The notes below the pieces were generated by a model, which saw only the letters and a program-made list of their open reading frames with translations, had not been told where the DNA came from and ran no database searches. Shown here in pieces: positions 39,049 to 64,000 of a stretch of 64,000 bases of DNA; position 1 is the first letter of the stretch; each line of letters starts with the position of its first letter. The stretch is from Malacoraja senta (taxonomy: Eukaryota): positions 22,508,001 through 22,572,000 of the forward strand of contig CM075988.1 of NCBI GenBank assembly GCA_038087875.1, written 5' to 3'. The translations under genes and the position numbers were made by a program.

Positions 39049-39469
39049 CTGTCAGAGGGGAAACAATCAGTGAGTCCACCACCATTGCCTGGTCCCCAAG
39101 ACATCAGATCATTCGATCGGGACTCAACTCTTCACAATCCAATGCCATATCAAAGACCACGTGATTAAATATTCCTGATCCAAGCATTGCAAAATCCAGA
39201 CCCAAAACTATCAGATGGCAGGACAAGACATACAGCGTGGAAACAGGCCCTTCAGCCCAATTTGCCCATGCCGACCAACATGGCCCATCTACACCAGTTC
39301 CACCTGCCTGCTTTTGGCCCATATCCCTTTAAACCTGCCCCATCCATGCACCTGTCTGAATGTTTCTTAAACGTTAGGATAGTACCTGCCTCAACTACCT
39401 CCTCCAGCCGCTTGTTCCATACACCCACCTCCTTCTTATGTAAACAAGTTACCCTTCATGTTCCCATTA

Positions 39470-42400
39470 CAGTCCAGACGTCCACATCTGCGCCAGGTGT
39501 ATCGAGATGGGGCTCCTAATGGACCGTATTAGGAACCTGGAGCAGCAGCTCGATGACCTCCGTCTGGTCAGGGAGAGCGAGGAAGTCATTGAGAGGAGTT
39601 ACAGGGATGTGGTCACTCCAACACCACAGGAGGCAGGCAAGTGGATCACGGTTGGGAGAGGCAAGGGGCACAGGCAGGGACTAGAGAGTACCCCGGTGGC
39701 TGTACACCTTGACAATAAGTACTCCTGTTTGAGCACTGTTGGGGTGGACAGCCTACCTGGGGGTAGCGACAGCAGCCGGGCCTCCGGTATAGAGACCGGT
39801 CCTGTTGCTCAGAAGGGTAAGGAAAAGAAGAGGAGGGCAATATTAATAGGGGACTCTATAGTTAGGGGGTCAGACAGGCGATTCTGTGGACGCAGTCGGG
39901 AGACCCGGATGGTAGTTTGCCTCCCTGGTGCCAGGGTCTGTGATGTGTCCCAACGTGTCCAAGACATCCTGAAAGGGCAGGGAGAGGAGCCCGAGGTCGT
40001 GATACATATAGGTACCAATGACATAGGTAAAAAAAGAGAAGAGGTCCTGAAAGGAGAATTTAGGGAGTTAGGAGGGGAGTTAAAGAGAAGGACAGCAAAG
40101 GTAACAATCTCGGGATTACTGCCTGTACCACGCGACAGTGAGAGTAGGAATGGAGCGAGGTGGAGGATAAATGCGTGGCTGAAGGACTGGTGCAGAAGGC
40201 AGGGATTCAAATTTCTGGATCATTGGGACTTCTTTGTGGAAGGTTCGACCTTGTACAAAAAGGATGGGTTGCACTTGAACCTGAGGGGGACCGATATCCT
40301 GGCGGGGAGATCTGCAAAGGCTACTGTGGGAGACTTTAAACTAGAATGGTTGGGGGAGGGACTCAAATAGAGAATGCTATTAGACAGTGTGTGAGGCAGG
40401 AGGCAGAGAAGGAAAGCACTCAGACCCAACATGTAGGGGGGAAAGAAGAAAACAATAATAAACAGAGAATAAGAGGTGGTGGGGTTCTTAAATGGGTGAG
40501 CAGAGAAACAGAGGGGTGTAAATGCGGGCGGAAGAATAGGTAGCAAGGTGAAAGGTAAAAGTGGCAGGCAGACAAATCCAGGACAAAAATCAAAAAGAGC
40601 CACTTTTCAACATAATTGTATAAGGGGTAAGAGCGTTGTAAAAACAAGTCTGAAGGCTTTGTGTCTCAATGCAAGGAGCATTCGTAATAAGGTGGATGAG
40701 TTGAACGTGCAGATAGCAATTAATGATTATGATATAGTTGGGATCACGGAGACATGGCTCCAAGGTGACCAAGGCTGGGAGCTGAACATCCAGGGATATT
40801 CAATATTCAGGAGGGGATAGAGAGAAAGGAAAAGGAGGTGGGGTGGCGTTGCTGGTTAGAGAGGAGATTAACGCAGTGGAAAGGAAGGACATTAGCTTGG
40901 AGGATGTGGAATCGGTATGGGTAGAGCTGCGAAACACTAAGGGGCAGAAAACGCTGGTGGGCGTTGTGTACAGGCCACCTAGCAGTAGTAGTGAAGTGGG
41001 GATGGCATCAACAGGAAATTAGAAATGCGTGCAACAAAGGCAAAACAGTTATAATGGGTGACTTCAATCTACATATAGATTGGGTGAATCAAATTGGCAG
41101 GGGTGCTGAGGAAGAGGATTTCTTGGAATGTATGAGGGATAGTTATCTAAACCAACATGTAGAGGAACCAACGAGAGAGCAGGCTATTCTAGACTGGGTA
41201 TTGAGTAATGAGGAAGGGTTAGTTAGCAGACTTGTTGTGCGTGCCCCCTTGGGCAAGAGTGATCATAATATGGTTGAGTTCTTCATTAGGATGGAGAGTG
41301 ACATTGTTAATTCAGAAACAACGGTTCTGAACTTAAAGAAAGGTAACTTTGAGGGTATGAGACATGAATTGGCCAAGATTGACTGGCAATTAGTTCTAAA
41401 AGGGTTGACGGTGGATATGCAATGGAAGGCATTTAAAGACTGCATGGATGAACTACAAAAATTGTTCATCCCAGTTTGGCAAAAGAATAAATCAAGGAAG
41501 GTAGTGCATCCGTGGATAACAAGGGAAATCAGGGATAGTATCAAAGCAAAAGATGATGCGTACAAATTAGCCAGAAAAAGCAGCATACCAGAGGACTGGG
41601 AGAAATTCAGAGACCAGCAGAGGAGGACAAAGGGCTTAATTAGGAAAGGGAAAATAGATTATGAAAGGAAACTGGCAGGGAACATAAAAACTGACTGCAA
41701 AAGTTTTTATAGATATGTGAAGAGAAAGAGATTAGTTAAATCAAATGTAGGTCCCTTGCAGTCAGAAACAGGTGAATTGATCAGTGGGAACAAGGATATG
41801 GCAGACCAATTGATAACTACTTTGGTTCCGTCTTCACTAAGGAAGACATAAATAATCTGCCGGAAATAGCAGGGGGCCGCGGGTCAAAGGAAGATGGAGG
41901 AACTGAGTGAAATCCAGGTTAGTCGAAGTGGTGTTGGGTAAATTGAATGGATTAAAGGCCGATAAATCACCAGGGCCAGATAGGCTGCATCCCAGAGTAC
42001 TTAAGGAAGTAGCTCCAGAAATAGTGGATGCATTAGTGATAATTTTTCAAAACTCTTTAGATTCTGGAGTAGTTCCTGAGGATTGGAGGGTAGCAAACGT
42101 AACCCCACTTTTTAAGAAGGGAGGGAGAGAGAAAACGGGGAATTAAGCCATTTAGTCTAACATCGGTAGTGGGGAAACTGCTAGAGTCAGTTATTAAAGA
42201 TGGGATAGCAGCACATTTGGAAAGTGGTGAAATCATTGGACAAAGTCAGCATGGATTTACGAAAGGTAAATCATGTCTGACGAATCTTATAGAATTTTTC
42301 GAGGATGTAACTAGTAGAGTGGATAGGGGAGAACCAGTGGATGTGTTGTATCTGGACTTTCAGAAGGCTTTCGACAAGGTACCACATAAGAGATTAGGAT

Positions 42401-58666: not shown

Positions 58667-59597
58667 TAACTCTACCGCTGTGCCACTATGCAGCAGAGAT
58701 AACATTTCCCATGACATTTCACAGGAGCATTATCGAACAGAATGTGACAGGACGACACAAGGAAGATTTGGAGTATTGCGTACAGTTCTGGTTACCCCAT
58801 TACAGGAAGGATGCAGAGGGGTTTTGAAAGGGTGCTGAGGAGATTTACCAGAATGCTGCCTGCACTAGGGGGTATTAGCTAGGAGAGGCTGAACAAACTT
58901 GGATTTTTTCCCTTGGAACATCTGAGATCGAGGGGGGACCTGTTAGAATATCTCAGATTAACAGAGGCAATGATAAGGTGGACAGTCGGAACCTTTCTCC
59001 CAGGGTGGACATGTCAAAGAGGGCATAGCTTTAGGGTGAGAGGGGCAAATTTTAAAGAAGATGTGTGGGACAAAATTCTCTACACAGATGGTGGTGGGTG
59101 CCTGGAACATGCTGCCAGGGGTGGTGGTGGAGGCAGATATGATAGTGGTGTTTAAGAGGCTTTTAGATATGCAGGGAATGGAGGGACACGGATCACATGC
59201 AGGCAGAGGAGATTAGTTGATCTTGCCATTATCTTTGGCATGGACATCATGGGCCTGTTCCTGTGGTGTACTGCTCTTTTATCGTGGGCCAAAGGGCCTG
59301 TTCCTGTGCTCCACTGCTCTCTGTTCTACAAAAGGCAACTGAAAGCTTAGTCAGAGGACTGGGTTTTTGTTTTTAAGAAACAGCATAAAGGGACCAAGAG
59401 AGGTTAGAAAGGCAGAGAGGTTTAATGTGGAGATTGTTGAACTCGGGGCCCAGGCAGCTGGGTATAAACGGAAGAGTGATGAGGACAAGGGATTGCAAAA
59501 GAAGCCAGTTTTAGTGTGCAGATGTACCGGTATAAATGAAGTACATAAGCTTTCGATGGATTTCAATAGACAATAGGTGCAGGAGTAGGCCAATGTA

Positions 59598-60095
59598 GTG
59601 GGAGACTCCATTGTGAGAGGTACGGACAGGGGTTTCTGTGGCAACAGACGGGATGCGAGGATGGTGTGCTGCCTTCCTGGTGCCAGGATCCAGGATGTCA
59701 CGGACAGAGTGCAGAAAATCCTCAAGGGCGAAGGTGAACATCCGGAAGTGGTAGTGCATGTCGGCACAAACGATGTCGGAAAGAAGGGGATGAATATTCT
59801 GCAGCGTGACTTTAGAGAGCTCGGAAAAATGCTGAAAAGCAGGACCTCCAGGGTTGTTATCTCCGGTTTGCTTCCAGTTCCTCGTGCTGGCGAGAGCAGG
59901 AACAGGGAGATACGGGACCTGAACGTGTGGCTCAGGAACTGGTGCACGGGGCAGGGATTTAGATTTTTAGATCACTGGGATCTGTTTTGGGGTAAGGGGG
60001 AACTGTACAAAAGGGACGGATTGCATCTTAACAGGTGTGGGACCAGCATTCTGGCAGGCAGGTTTGCCACTGCTACACGGATGGTTTTAAACTGA
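59598..60095 (+). CDS. CR1 ORF1 C-terminal SGNH/GDSL esterase domain (partial)
   Basis: GDS block I, GTND block III, DGLH block V; ends MVLN*. Confidence 0.9.
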   Translation: MGDSIVRGTDRGFCGNRRDARMVCCLPGARIQDVTDRVQKILKGEGEHPEVVVHVGTNDVGKKGMNILQRDFRELGKMLKSRTSRVVISGLLPVPRAGESRNREIRDLNVWLRNWCTGQGFRFLDHWDLFWGKGELYKRDGLHLNRCGTSILAGRFATATRMVLN

Positions 60096-63000
60096 ATAAG
60101 GGGGGTGGGGTTTCGAATGGGATAGTGGAGGATGGAGTTAAAGGGAAAGGGTTTCTTAAATGTGTGAGCGTAGAGACAGAGGAGTGTAAAATGAGGGTAG
60201 AAGCAATAGGTAGCAAGGTGAAAAGTAAAAGTGGAAGACAGACAAAACCAGGGCAAAAATCAAAAAGGGCCACTTTTCAACATAATTGTATAAGGGGTAA
60301 GAATGTTGTAAAAACAAGCCTGAAGGCTTTGTGTCTCAATGCAAGGAGCATTCGTAATAAGGTGGATGAGTTGAATGTGCAGATAGCTATTAATGACTAT
60401 GATATAGTTGGGATCACGGAGACATGGCTCCAGGGTGACCAAGGCTGGGAGCTGAACATCCAGGGATATTCAATATTCAGGAGGGATAGAGAGAAAGGAA
60501 AAGGAGGTGGGGTAGCGTTGCTGGTTAGAGAGGAGATTAACGCAGTGGAAAGGAAAGACATTAGCTTGGAGGATGTGGAATCGGTATGGGTAGAGCTGCG
60601 AAACACTAAGGGGCAGAAAACGCTGGTGGGTGTTGTGTACAGGCCACCTAGCAGTAGTAGTGAAGTTGGGGATGGCATCAAACAGGAAATTAGAAATGCG
60701 TGCGACAAAGGCAAAACAGTTATAATGGGTGACTTCAATCTACATATAGATTGGGTGAATCAAATTGGCAGGGGTGCTGAGGAAGAGGATTTCTTGGAAT
60801 GTATGCGGGATAGTTATCTAAATCAACATGTAGAGGAACCAACGAGAGAGCAGGCTATTTTAGACTGGGTATTGAGTAATGAGGAAGGGTTAGTTAGCAG
60901 TCTTGTTGTACGTGCCCCCTTGGGCAAGAGTGACCATAATATGGTTGAGTTCTTCATTAGGATGGAGAGTGACATTGTTAATTCAGAAACAATGGTTCTG
61001 AACTTAAAGAAAGGTAACTTTGAGGGTATGAGACATGAATTGGCCATGATTGACTGGCAATTAATTCTAAAAGGGTTGACGGTGGACATGCAATGGAAGA
61101 CATTTAAAGACTGCATGGATGAACTACAAAAATTGTTCATCCCAGTTTGGCAAAAGAATAAATCAGGGAAGGTAGTGCATCCATGGATAACAAGGGAAAT
61201 CAGGGATGGTATCAAAGCGAAAGATGATGCGTACAAATTAGCCAGAAAAAGCAGCATACCAGAGGACTGGGAGAAATTCAGAGACCAGCAGAGGAGGACA
61301 AAGGGCTTAATTAGGAAAGGAAAAATAGATTATGAAAGAAAACTGGCAGGGAACATAAAAACTGACTGCAAAAGTTTTTATAAATATGTAAAAAGAAAGA
61401 GATTAGTTAAAACAAATGTAGGTCCCTTGCAGTCAGAAACAGGTGAGTTGATCATGGGGAACAAGGATATGGCGGACCAATTGAATAACTACTTTGGTTC
61501 CGTCTTCACTAAGGAAGACATAAATAATCTGCCGGAAATAGCAGGGGACCGCGGGTCAAAGGAGTTGGAGGAATTGAGTGAAATCCAGGTTAGTCGGGAA
61601 GTGGTGTTGGGTAAATTGAATGGATTAAAGGCCGATAAATCCCCAGGGCCAGATAGGCTGCATCCCAGAGTACTTAAGGAAGTAGCTCCAGAAATAGTGG
61701 ATGCATTAGTAATAATCTTTCAAAATTCTTTAGATTCTGGAGTAGTTCCTGAGGATTGGCGGGTAGCAAACGTAACCCCACTTTTTAAGAAGGGAGGGAG
61801 AGAGAAAACGGGGAATTACAGACCAGTTAGTCTAACATCGGTAGTGGGGAAACTGCTAGAGTCGGTTATTAAAGATGGGATAGCAGCACATTTGGAAAGT
61901 GGTGAAATCATTGGACAAAGTCAGCATGGATTTACGAAAGGTAAATCATGTCTGACGAATCTTATAGAATTTTTCGAGGATGTAACTAGTAGCGTGGATA
62001 GGGGAGAACCAGTGGATGTGGTGTATCTGGACTTCCAGAAGGCTTTCGACAAGGTCCCACATAAGAGATTAGTATACAAACTTAAAGCACATGGCATTGG
62101 GGGTTCAGTATTGATGTGGATAGAGAACTGGCTGGCAAACAGGAAGCAAAGAGTAGGAGTAAACGGGTCCTTTTCACAATGGCAGGCAGTGACTAGTGGG
62201 GTACCGCAAGGCTCAGTGCTGGGACCCCAGCTATTTACAATATATATTAATGACCTGGATGAGGGAATTGAAGGCAATATCTCCAAGTTTGCGGATGACA
62301 CTAAGCTGGGGGGCAGTGTTAGCTGTGAGGAGGATGCTAGGAGACTGCAAGGTGACTTGGATAGGCTGGGTGAGTGGGCAAATGTTTGGCAGATGCAGTA
62401 TAATGTGGATAAATGTGAGGTTATCCATTTTGGTGGCAAAAACAGGAAAGCAGACTATTTTCTAAATGGTGGCCGACTAGGAAAAGGGGAGATGCAGCGA
62501 GACCTGGGTGTCATGGTACACCAGTCATTGAAAGTAGGCATGCAGGTGCAGCAGGCAGTGAAGAAAGCAAATGGTATGTTAGCTTTCATAGCAAAAGGAT
62601 TTGAGTATAGGAGCAGGGAGGTTCTACTGCAGTTGTACAGGGTCTTGGTGAGACCACACCTGGAGTATTGCGTACAGTTTTGGTCTCCAAATCTGAGGAA
62701 GGACATTATTGCCATAGAGGGAGTGCAGAGAAGGTTCACCAGACTGATTCCTGGGATGTCAGGACTGTCTTATGAAGAAAGACTGGATAGACTTGGTTTA
62801 TACTCACTAGAATTTAGGAGATTGAGAGGGGATCTTATAGAAACTTACAAAATTCTTAAGGGGTTGGACAGGCTAGATGCAGGAAGATTGCTCCCGATGT
62901 TGGGGAAGTCCAGGACAAGGGGTCACAGCTTAAGGATAAGGGGGAAATCCTTTAAAACCGAGATGAGAAGAACTTTTTTCACACAGAGAGTGGTGAATCT

Positions 63001-63127
63001 CTGGAACTCTCTGCCACAGAGGGTAGTCGAGGCCAGTTCATTGGCTATATTTAAGAGGGAGCTAGATGTGGCCCTTGTGGCTAAAGGGATCAGAGGGTAT
63101 GGAGAGAAGGCAGGTACGGGATACTGA
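60086..63127 (+). CDS. CR1 ORF2, AP-endonuclease plus reverse transcriptase (start uncertain: -1 frameshift at 60086 or ATG at 60191)
   Basis: Uninterrupted frame of about 1010 codons: LNARS, GITETW, MGDFN, SDH (APE); YRPVSL, QHGF, DFQKAFD, GVPQGSVLGP, FADD (RT). Confidence 0.95.
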   Translation, partial: FKLNKGGGVSNGIVEDGVKGKGFLKCVSVETEECKMRVEAIGSKVKSKSGRQTKPGQKSKRATFQHNCIRGKNVVKTSLKALCLNARSIRNKVDELNVQIAINDYDIVGITETWLQGDQGWELNIQGYSIFRRDREKGKGGGVALLVREEINAVERKDISLEDVESVWVELRNTKGQKTLVGVVYRPPSSSSEVGDGIKQEIRNACDKGKTVIMGDFNLHIDWVNQIGRGAEEEDFLECMRDSYLNQHVEEPTREQAILDWVLSNEEGLVSSLVVRAPLGKSDHNMVEFFIRMESDIVNSETMVLNLKKGNFEGMRHELAMIDWQLILKGLTVDMQWKTFKDCMDELQKLFIPVWQKNKSGKVVHPWITREIRDGIKAKDDAYKLARKSSIPEDWEKFRDQQRRTKGLIRKGKIDYERKLAGNIKTDCKSFYKYVKRKRLVKTNVGPLQSETGELIMGNKDMADQLNNYFGSVFTKEDINNLPEIAGDRGSKELEELSEIQVSREVVLGKLNGLKADKSPGPDRLHPRVLKEVAPEIVDALVIIFQNSLDSGVVPEDWRVANVTPLFKKGGREKTGNYRPVSLTSVVGKLLESVIKDGIAAHLESGEIIGQSQHGFTKGKSCLTNLIEFFEDVTSSVDRGEPVDVVYLDFQKAFDKVPHKRLVYKLKAHGIGGSVLMWIENWLANRKQRVGVNGSFSQWQAVTSGVPQGSVLGPQLFTIYINDLDEGIEGNISKFADDTKLGGSVSCEEDARRLQGDLDRLGEWANVWQMQYNVDKCEVIHFGGKNRKADYFLNGGRLGKGEMQRDLGVMVHQSLKVGMQVQQAVKKANGMLAFIAKGFEYRSREVLLQLYRVLVRPHLEYCVQFWSPNLRKDIIAIEGVQRRFTRLIPGMSGLSYEERLDRLGLYSLEFRRLRGDLIETYKILKGLDRLDAGRLLPMLGKSRTRGHSLRIRGKSFKTEMRRTFFTQRVVNLWNSLPQRVVEASSLAIFKRELDVALVAKGIRGYGEKAGTGY

Positions 63128-64000
63128 GTTGGATGATCAGCCATGATCATATTGAATGGCGGTGCAGGCTCGAAGGGCCGAATGGCCTACTCCTGCACCT
63201 AATTTCTATGTTTCTATGTTTCTATTCGGCCCTTCGAGCCAGCACCGCCATTCAATGTGATCATGGCTGATCATCCCCAATCAGTACCCCATTCCTGCCT
63301 TCTCCCCATATCCCCTGACTCCGCTGTCTTTAAGAGCCCTATCTAGCTCTCGCTTGAAAGTATCCAGAGAACCGGCCTCCATTTCATCTCATAAGTGATC
63401 GGAGCAGAATTAGGCCATTTGGCCCATCAAGTCTACTCCACCAATCAATCATGGCTGATCTATCTCTCCCTCCTAACCCCATTCTCCTGCCTTCTCCCCA
63501 TAACCCCAGACACCTGTACTAATCAAGAATCTATCTATCTCTGCCTTACAAATCTCCATTGACTTGGCCTCCACAGCCTTCAGTGGCAATGAATTCCACA
63601 GATTCACCACCCTCTGAGTAAATAGATTTCTCCTCATCTCCTTCCTAAAGGAACTTTAGTTCTTTAATTCTGAGGCTGTGACCTCTGGTCCTCGACTCTC
63701 CCACTAATCCCAACATCCTCGCCACAGCCACTCTATCCAGGCCTTTCACTATTCGGTAAGTTTCAATGAGGAACCCCCCTCATCCTTCTACTTTGGAGTT
63801 TGGATGTCTGATAATGTCAAAGGAACACAAGAGAAGTCTCCAACGGAGAGGACAGAGCAGCACTAACATCAGCCACGGAAGCACACACTGGAAGTCATAT
63901 TGATTGAGAGCATTTCTGGCGACCTTCACTTGCATCGATCAGTCTTAACCCAGCCTGTGAACCGAATATCTCACAGTCAGCTCATTTATTTTTAATGACA

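What the first reader, a model, noticed from the sequence alone, without database searches (positions are those of the whole stretch)
60081..60200. Candidate programmed -1 ribosomal frameshift joining ORF1 to ORF2 in a CR1 LINE
Seen: ORF1 ends ATG GTT TTA AAC TGA. This places the heptamer T_TTA_AAC (60086-60092) in the correct X_XXY_YYZ register just before the ORF1 stop. ORF2 is open in the -1 frame from there (FKLNKGGG...) through APE and RT with no stop. After a 7-nt spacer comes a G-rich tract (GGGGGGTGGGG...GGG...GG..GG..GG). Established: U_UUA_AAC is the coronavirus-type slippery site, stimulators lie about 5-9 nt downstream, and G-quadruplexes can act as stimulators; well-studied LINEs such as L1 use termination-reinitiation instead. 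Inference: this lineage may make a gag-pol-like ORF1-esterase/EN/RT fusion. The alternative is reinitiation at ATG 60191. I could not check whether this is already reported for CR1.
Basis: partly seen in the sequence, partly recalled or inferred. Interest (0 to 1): 0.85.

Follow-up and report, generated by a model that had tools for sequence, protein, structure and literature searches.

The report
Slippery frameshift site in CR1 LINEs
A very common jumping gene of fishes, reptiles and birds (CR1) keeps a virus-style 'slippery' sequence exactly where its first gene ends, so its copying enzyme is most likely made when ribosomes slip back one base and fuse the two genes, which is not how the well-studied human LINE does it.

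Summary
Observation confirmed; the frameshift reading is well supported by comparison but untested at the bench. The window holds a young, 5'-truncated CR1 LINE. T_TTA_AAC (60086-92) ends ORF1, and ORF2 is open in the -1 frame for 1013 codons. All 145 of 145 genome copies picked by ORF1 keep the heptamer. Eight lineages with different preceding codons, all three stop codons and linkers of 33-110 codons all have the heptamer and a G6-7 run 6-10 nt behind it. The -1 linker was open in the 7 copies scored. One young family (150 matches at 99-100%) has its first in-frame AUG at codon 269, past the endonuclease, so AUG reinitiation cannot be general. 119 of 171 anchored ORF1 homologues, from sharks to a bird, end x-Leu-Asn, and x avoids residues that cannot end in U (3/119). 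More distant relatives end Gln-Gly-Asn or carry x-Lys-Asn, which fits swaps to G_GGA_AAC and A_AAA_AAC (protein inference only). No stem-loop or pseudoknot was found, and a G-quadruplex is not predicted in most lineages. Eight literature searches found no CR1 report, but the 1997-2003 CR1 papers were unreadable. Dictyostelium TRE5-A is a LINE precedent. This scan noted the same site earlier in another shark genome.

The parts
59589..60095 (+). 3' part of CR1 ORF1 (SGNH esterase domain, ends x-Leu-Asn-stop); copy is 5'-truncated here, full ORF1 in sister copies is about 308 aa
60086..60092 (+). Slippery heptamer T_TTA_AAC in ORF1 register
60093..60095 (+). ORF1 stop (TGA here; TAG or TAA in sister lineages), first codon 3' of the heptamer
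60100..60110 (+). G6-T-G4 tract, 7 nt behind the heptamer; candidate stimulator (G6-7 run at 6-10 nt in the eight lineages compared; mode of action unknown)
60086..63127 (+). ORF2 in the -1 frame, 1013 codons from the heptamer to the stop
60092..60337 (+). 82-codon linker between the slip site and the first APE motif (NARS); 0 stops in the -1 frame, 11 and 8 in the other two
60191..60193 (+). First in-frame ATG of this family; lies in a 165-nt block absent from families B2 and A0, not conserved
60353..60937 (+). APE endonuclease (PF03372)
61796..62449 (+). Reverse transcriptase (PF00078)
63128..63225 (+). Short 3' UTR and (TTTCTATG)n octamer tail at 63203-63225, typical of CR1 (typicality recalled)
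40335..40341 (+). Same heptamer in a second, decayed CR1 (family B) in this window, followed by TAG and a G run

Best explanation
Esterase-ORF1 CR1 LINEs express ORF2 by programmed -1 ribosomal frameshifting. Most ribosomes read UUA AAC and stop, giving ORF1p (zinc finger, coiled coil, esterase; about 308 aa). A minority, with tRNA-Leu and tRNA-Asn on UUA and AAC, slip one base back onto UUU AAA, bypass the stop and continue through a variable charged linker into APE and RT. That gives an ORF1p-ORF2p fusion of about 1,320 aa, gag-pol-like in stoichiometry; no protease domain was detected. The pause probably comes from the adjacent stop codon together with the G6-7 run that would sit at the mRNA entry channel. 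SHOWN: heptamer, register, open -1 frame, their conservation, absence of a conserved AUG. INFERRED: slippage itself, the fusion protein, its level, and any role of the G run (quadruplex, bound protein or neither).
For: (1) DNA: heptamer in 145 of 145 G000 loci picked by ORF1 or by junction DNA. It is in 8 of 8 lineage representatives, whose preceding codon is GTT, GTT, ACT, ACT, TCT, GGT, GAT or CAT (always T third) and whose stop is TGA, TAG or TAA. Of the last 26 ORF1 codons only 23-26 have invariant third bases; those of the invariant DGLHLN residues all vary. 0 of 27 Leu-Asn pairs in four ORF2s are spelled T-TTA-AAC; codon use gives about 0.011 per pair. (2) Frame: linkers of 33, 55, 64, 65, 66, 82 and 110 codons have no stop in -1 and 1-11 stops in each other frame; P(open) in shuffles 0.0004-0.097 each. 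Open in 116 of 145 loci (A 31/31, B/B2 64/84, C 21/30). (3) No usable AUG: L174 is open for 986 codons with the first Met at 269, after the APE SDH motif at 258. The same holds in 24 of 30 sister loci; the other 6 break earlier without a Met. 150 scored matches at 99-100%. L056 has its first Met after NARS. (4) Proteins: 119 of 171 anchored homologues end xLN; x is Q/K/E/M/W (no U-ending codon) in 3/119 against 115/476 at positions -4 to -7 (non-redundant 1/51 vs 47/204, p 2e-4). Named members include skates, rays, sharks, coelacanth, sturgeon, teleosts, frogs, turtles, lizards, a snake and a swallow. (5) The solved ZfL2-1 esterase 4C1B ends before the Leu-Asn positions, so the fold does not need them. 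(6) xGN enders have x = Gln in 7 of 8 and xKN enders Ser in 2 of 2, as G_GGA_AAC and A_AAA_AAC require; these and U_UUA_AAC are named among the most shifty eukaryotic heptamers (PMC5009743, passage). (7) Annotated stingray proteins from decayed copies run from the esterase through FKL into APE (P0021, P0024).
Against: No translation product was observed; all evidence is comparative. No stem-loop, pseudoknot or conserved long-range partner was found 3' of the site, and a quadruplex is predicted in only 3 of 8 lineages (B, B2, E), not in the window's own. Without a stimulator a heptamer shifts poorly (0.4% control in PMC3919603, passage). 29 of 145 loci are not open (19 frameshifted, 10 of these with a changed G-run length; 8 with stops; 2 unresolved). 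Among 20 older loci with a readable junction 3 have a substituted heptamer and L208 has no G run; this fits decay but is not proof of it. The lineages are related, so the p values overstate independence. B2 loci were picked by identity to a Met-free 200-aa query, so only codons 201-269 and the three ORF1-picked copies (L122, L130, L150) test that point freely. The A0 and E representatives were chosen as open copies. Protein picks favour Leu-Asn, though not its codons. 93 of 264 proteins could not be anchored and were dropped, and 36 of 171 do not end in Asn. DNA outside this genome is one contig (L056) plus one read consensus.
Confidence: 0.85

Rival explanations
1. AUG-independent termination-reinitiation as proposed for mammalian L1: ribosomes stop at the ORF1 stop and restart near it in the -1 frame at a non-AUG codon. 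In this family C-UGA gives an overlapping CUG/stop.
For: Explains the open linker and the missing AUG equally well. L1 ORF2 initiation is described as independent of its AUG (PMC5009743, passage). The G run could hold a post-termination ribosome, as a downstream structure does in SART1 (PMC3894237, PMC10275272, passages).
Against: It gives no reason to fix the wobble U, UUA and AAC upstream of the stop, nor for x-restriction in the proteins. The overlapping CUG exists only in the two TGA lineages; near-cognate starts are not shared and families C and D have none nearby. The UGGGA core of TURBS (motif recalled) is present in 3 of 8 lineages at two different distances.
Confidence: 0.08
2. Reinitiation or internal initiation at the first in-frame AUG (60191 in this family).
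For: ATG 60191 is in frame with A at -3 and lies upstream of APE; families A0, B, C and E also have a Met before NARS.
Against: First-Met positions are 36, 40, 57, 64, 68 (42 in one E copy), 44 (after NARS) and 269 (after APE), i.e. not conserved. Three out-of-frame ATGs come first. The 33-63 codons upstream of the Met need not stay open under this model, yet they do.
Confidence: 0.03
3. The frames are joined in the RNA (polymerase slippage in the T/A or G run, splicing or editing), with ordinary translation.
For: G-run length varies in 16 of 145 genomic loci, so the run is slip-prone for some polymerase or for sequencing.
Against: An indel in the G run lies behind the ORF1 stop and cannot fuse the frames. 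In three RNA runs of a related organism (junction depth about 107, 86 and 1,170) no indel at 5% or more was listed at the junction and no joint across it had more than 4 reads. These reads lie on both strands and may come largely from copies inside other transcripts.
Confidence: 0.02
4. The heptamer is kept for another reason (C-terminal Leu-Asn as a protein signal, or an RNA/DNA motif for packaging or module swapping) and ORF2 translation is unrelated to it.
For: Leu167 and Asn168 are invariant in alignment A1. ORF1/ORF2 module swaps occur near the junction.
Against: A protein signal would not fix codons or the wobble base of a freely varying residue. The swaps seen map to a point about 75-165 nt downstream, not to the heptamer. 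Leu-Asn occurs at 22-39 residues from the catalytic Asp and lies beyond the end of the solved fold.
Confidence: 0.02

Closest known systems
Vertebrate canonical CR1 LINEs with esterase ORF1 (CR1 clade; skate/ray HER1-like, name recalled)
   Same: SGNH esterase ORF1, APE-RT ORF2, octamer tail, 5' truncation; nearest named ORF1 is 93% identical, Leucoraja erinacea.
   Different: The CR1 papers I could search do not mention a slip site: 0 hits for frameshift, slippery or overlap in the 2026 vertebrate survey PMC13343379 and 0 for frameshift in PMC3905857.
Dictyostelium TRE5-A and TRE3-A (APE-type non-LTR elements)
   Same: [quoted passage not shown]
   Different: Different clade, host kingdom and ORF1. 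I could not read the primary paper, so whether that frameshift was measured or which heptamer it uses is unknown to me.
Viral and retroviral -1 PRF at U_UUA_AAC (coronavirus 1a/1b) and gag-pol/PEG10-type signals
   Same: Same heptamer class and register, stop-bypass logic, candidate 3' element at a 6-10 nt spacer, structural protein in excess of enzyme.
   Different: No pseudoknot or hairpin found; the stop directly follows the heptamer; no protease domain found; host is a LINE.
Mammalian L1 and silkworm SART1 ORF2 translation
   Same: Bicistronic LINE RNA, ORF2 made in small amounts.
   Different: They use reinitiation (AUG-independent for L1, UAAUG overlap for SART1) and make a separate ORF2p.
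PRRSV nsp2 frameshift stimulated in trans by nsp1-beta with poly(C)-binding protein
   Same: A precedent for protein-stimulated shifting (PMC5009743, passage); its short unstructured C-rich motif about 10 nt downstream is recalled, not read.
   Different: Here the motif is a G run and no binding protein is identified.

Membership tests
CR1 clade LINE | ORF2 with APE endonuclease and RT | tested here: met
CR1 clade LINE | ORF1 with SGNH esterase (plus N-terminal Cys motif in full copies) | tested here: met
CR1 clade LINE | Short 3' UTR with octamer repeat tail, no poly(A) | tested here: met
   the defining tail type is recalled
CR1 clade LINE | RT phylogeny places it in CR1 rather than L2 | not tested
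   no RT tree built; assignment rests on ORF1 relatives and tail
-1 programmed ribosomal frameshift signal | X_XXY_YYZ heptamer in zero-frame register before the zero-frame stop | tested here: met
-1 programmed ribosomal frameshift signal | -1 frame open from the heptamer into the downstream coding region | tested here: met
   116 of 145 loci; 7 of 7 scored representatives
-1 programmed ribosomal frameshift signal | Nucleotide-level conservation beyond coding need | tested here: met
-1 programmed ribosomal frameshift signal | 3' stem-loop or pseudoknot 5-9 nt downstream | tested here: not met
   z -0.11, -0.02 and 0.48; no conserved partner. A non-canonical stimulator is not excluded
-1 programmed ribosomal frameshift signal | G-quadruplex stimulator | tested here: inconclusive
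   G4Hunter-type score 0.97-1.87, top of ORF2 windows (0/588 higher or equal in this family), but a quadruplex fold in 3 of 8 lineages only
-1 programmed ribosomal frameshift signal | Measured transframe product dependent on the heptamer | not testable with these tools
   needs reporter, ribosome profiling or MS
Termination-reinitiation (SART1/calicivirus type) | AUG overlapping or close to the ORF1 stop | tested here: not met
Termination-reinitiation (SART1/calicivirus type) | Conserved upstream TURBS-like UGGGA | tested here: not met
   3 of 8 lineages; motif recalled

The most novel reading that the evidence does not exclude
-1 frameshifting is the ancestral way esterase-ORF1 CR1 elements across animals make their enzyme. 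It has been kept since the split of sharks and bony vertebrates at U_UUA_AAC and swapped to G_GGA_AAC or A_AAA_AAC in more distant lineages. It is driven not by a pseudoknot but by a bare G6-7 run acting as a quadruplex or as a landing site for a G-tract-binding host protein. That would be a natural G-tract-stimulated frameshift, which the 2016 review called anticipated but not known, and it would make the working CR1 enzyme an uncleaved esterase-EN-RT fusion.
Probability: 0.3. Interest if true: 0.92.

Novelty: new variant of a known kind. Interest (0 to 1): 0.78.

Why it matters
How LINE ORF2 is translated is an open question: a 2013 review calls it 'interesting and important' and lists reinitiation, IRES and 2A without the word frameshift (PMC3894237, passages). 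CR1-group elements are the dominant retrotransposons of most vertebrates (PMC13343379, abstract start). If right, the true CR1 enzyme is an ORF1p-ORF2p fusion, ORF2 annotations that start at the first ATG are wrong (in family B2 they would drop the whole endonuclease), and the criteria for an intact CR1 change. Vertebrate genomes would then hold many copies of a natural -1 signal with an unusual stimulator. The hypothesis is testable with a 150-nt reporter cassette.

Tried and rejected
Identical young copies (30 of 40 scored matches at full score) cannot test conservation, so divergent families were sought through ORF1 queries and an ORF1 motif pattern. Of those 30 pattern loci, 8 were chance matches, L227 was too decayed and L219 breaks off before the junction; these 10 were left out of the 17-of-20 count. 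A local hairpin or pseudoknot 3' of the heptamer was not supported. A long-range partner for the G run: the best duplexes fell at different places in each family. A DNA search with the B2 junction returned nothing although the locus is in the genome (filter artefact), so a protein query was used. Viral contigs held no relative for alignments A1, A2, A3 and prokaryote genome contigs only weak GDSL-type matches. The metagenome scan gave one vertebrate-type locus among 18; L057-L061 lack the heptamer, and in the two I translated downstream (L057, L060) I saw no APE-like sequence. So no DNA confirms the G_GGA_AAC or A_AAA_AAC reading. Alignments A2 and A3 were assembled by that motif, so their invariant Asn or Lys-Asn is not independent support. 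No RNA holder was listed in the run index. An AlphaFold job on the esterase had not finished at the last collection; nothing is drawn from it. Literature: searches found no report of frameshifting in CR1; one search found the TRE5-A statement; one search was uninformative. Not held and so not read: Haas 1997 (chicken CR1), Kapitonov and Jurka 2003, Kojima 2005, Marschalek 1992, and one L1 translation paper. The turtle CR1 paper of 1997 and Repbase notes were not seen. Any of these may already remark on the overlap or the heptamer. No supplements were read; those of PMC13343379 and PMC3905857 could bear on it.
Full report
What is there. Window 59589-63225 is a CR1-type LINE on the + strand. It has the esterase half of ORF1 (PF13472), an ORF2 frame of 1031 codons stop to stop with APE and RT, a short 3' UTR and an octamer tail. 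The copy is cut at 59589; sister copies carry the full ORF1 of about 308 residues. The family is young: 30 of 40 scored genome matches reach the full score over 401 bases, from 2,082 candidates. The nearest named ORF1 is from Leucoraja erinacea at 93%, so the host is probably a skate or ray (inference).

Is it more than chance? One TTTAAAC is not (22 in the window), and identical copies say nothing. I therefore collected other families through ORF1 or junction DNA queries, an ORF1 motif pattern and a metagenome scan. All 145 of 145 G000 loci have the heptamer. Of 30 pattern loci, 20 had a readable junction: 17 intact and 3 with one substitution. Eight lineage representatives (A, A0, B, B2, C, E, F from G000; D = L056) read GTT/GTT/ACT/ACT/TCT/GGT/GAT/CAT, then TTA AAC, then TGA, TAG or TAA. 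The amino acid before Leu changes six ways and the stop three ways, while the seven bases do not change. Third positions of the invariant catalytic DGLHLN codons all vary; only codons 23-26 of the last 26 have fixed third bases. In four ORF2s none of 27 Leu-Asn pairs is spelled this way, and codon use gives about 0.011 per pair. RNA reads of a related organism show common variants at 60081 and 60085, directly 5' of the heptamer, and none inside it among the 40 rows shown (173 rows hidden); a loose-end consensus shows one more family ending TTAAAC-TAA with a G6 run.

The -1 frame. Linkers from slip site to the first APE motif are 33, 55, 64, 65, 66, 82 and 110 codons. Each has no stop in -1 and 1-11 stops in the other frames (the F copy is frameshifted and was not scored, and the A0 and E copies were chosen as open). 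Across all 145 loci 116 are open. Nineteen are frameshifted (10 with a changed G-run length, which may be sequencing or RT error), 8 carry stops and 2 were unresolved. Families A and B share a 165-nt block and ORF2 behind different ORF1-linker modules, and both joins keep the frame.

No conserved AUG. The ATG at 60191 lies in that 165-nt block. Family B2 lacks the block: L174 is open for 986 codons from the heptamer through RT, with the first Met at 269, after the APE SDH motif at 258. B2 is a large young family (150 scored matches at 99-100%). In 24 of 30 fetched loci the first Met is 269 and the other 6 break earlier without one. These were selected on the Met-free first 200 residues, so the free tests are codons 201-269 and L122, L130 and L150, found through ORF1. 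One older B2-like copy has a Met at 156, still inside APE (L212). L056 has its first Met after NARS. In the window three out-of-frame ATGs precede 60191. AUG reinitiation therefore cannot be the general mechanism.

Breadth from proteins. Of 264 homologues, 171 could be anchored on the catalytic motif and 93 were dropped as fragments or divergent. 119 of 171 end x-Leu-Asn. A heptamer predicts that x must have a U-ending codon: Q, K, E, M or W occur at x in 3 of 119 but at positions -4 to -7 in 115 of 476 (non-redundant 1/51 vs 47/204, p 2e-4, inflated by kinship). Named carriers run from sharks and rays through sturgeon, teleosts, coelacanth, frogs, turtles and squamates to a swallow. Unnamed distant homologues end x-Gly-Asn (x = Gln in 7 of 8) or Ser-Lys-Asn (2), and seven carry internal T/S/A/R-Lys-Asn at the same place. 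These are the residues that G_GGA_AAC and A_AAA_AAC would encode, and those two with U_UUA_AAC are among the most shifty eukaryotic heptamers (PMC5009743, passage). This is inference: no DNA could be fetched for them. 36 of 171 do not end in Asn, including ZfL2-1-like proteins. The solved ZfL2-1 esterase (4C1B) ends before the Leu-Asn positions.

The stimulator is the weak point. A G6-7 run begins 6-10 nt after the heptamer in all eight representatives, in different codon phases, and is the most G-rich 30-nt window of ORF2 in this family (0 of 588 as high). No hairpin or pseudoknot beats shuffles, no long-range partner is shared, and ViennaRNA folds a quadruplex only for B, B2 and E. One old copy has heptamer and stop without a G run (L208). 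Synthetic quadruplexes 6-8 nt behind UUUAAAC give up to about 7% shifting and lose effect with long loops (PMC3919603, abstract and passages), and the window's tracts would need long loops. A G-binding protein or a pause at the adjacent stop are open options.

Mechanism and rivals. Best reading (0.85): tandem slippage of tRNA-Leu and tRNA-Asn on U_UUA_AAC yields an ORF1p-ORF2p fusion of about 1,320 residues at a few percent of ORF1p. AUG-independent reinitiation (0.08) explains the open linker but not the fixed upstream bases; an overlapping CUG exists only in the TGA lineages and a TURBS-like core in 3 of 8. RNA-level joining (0.02) finds no support, with the caveat that those reads come from a related species and both strands.

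What is known. Frameshifting is claimed for the Dictyostelium LINEs TRE5-A and TRE3-A (PMC5911963, figure-legend passage; primary paper not held), so a LINE using -1 shifting is not without precedent. For CR1 I found nothing in searches. The held 300,000 of 449,034 characters of the Atkins 2016 review have no 'CR1', the 2026 CR1 survey has no 'frameshift', and the 2013 review of non-LTR protein biogenesis has none either. I saw passages only, also for PMC11835228, PMC3905857, PMC4255032, PMC5006619 and PMC10275272. The founding CR1 papers were not available, so a prior remark on the overlap is possible. This scan noted the same site in another shark genome (e1-8041403); that note gave me the TRE5-A lead and is not counted as evidence.

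Verdict. Real, conserved across jawed vertebrates at protein level and across eight lineages at DNA level, and most likely a programmed -1 frameshift. It is a known mechanism in a major element class where I could not find it reported, with an unexplained G-run element. Interest 0.78.

Noticed in passing
window 59545-59592 and 63226-63400: The young CR1 sits inside the 3' UTR of an older minus-strand CR1 and splits it; the two flanks are the two halves of that UTR, with short microhomology at the 5' joint.
   Followed up: partly
window 40481-42175 vs 60150-61850; L174, L225: ORF1/ORF2 module swapping: families A and B have different ORF1s (64% identical esterase) but 96% identical ORF2 DNA, joined in frame at a shared GFLKCV-like stretch; B2 and A0 carry the same ORF1 ends on other ORF2s.
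   Followed up: partly
window 39400-42200: Second, decayed CR1 (family B) with the same junction at 40335 and several frameshifts; ORF2 fragments of other CR1 families are scattered across the window.
   Followed up: partly
L172:5440-5780: Family C has a 3' UTR of about 310 nt, against about 75 nt in A and B, with the same octamer tail; B2 (L174) ends in a different (GGTTATAT-like) repeat.
   Followed up: no
P0052: A protein named 'SGNH/GDSL hydrolase, Pseudomonas aeruginosa' is a shark-type CR1 ORF1 (68% to the window's, ends EGLN); probably contamination of that record.
   Followed up: no
P0024, P0020: CR1 ORF1 or ORF1-APE sequence is annotated as isoforms of host genes (hydroxyacid oxidase 2, ribosomal protein S24) in ray genomes; probably annotation artefacts.
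   Followed up: no
P0187, P0222, P0264, P0167, P0237, P0214: Other distant ORF1s end in Phe-Phe-x or carry Trp-Gly-Phe near the end, which could spell U_UUU_UUY or G_GGU_UUU slip sites; no DNA available.
   Followed up: no
G000 C14:18115566-18197571: Six matches to the ORF1 motif pattern at about 15-18 kb spacing on one strand, suggesting a tandem segmental array containing a CR1.
   Followed up: no
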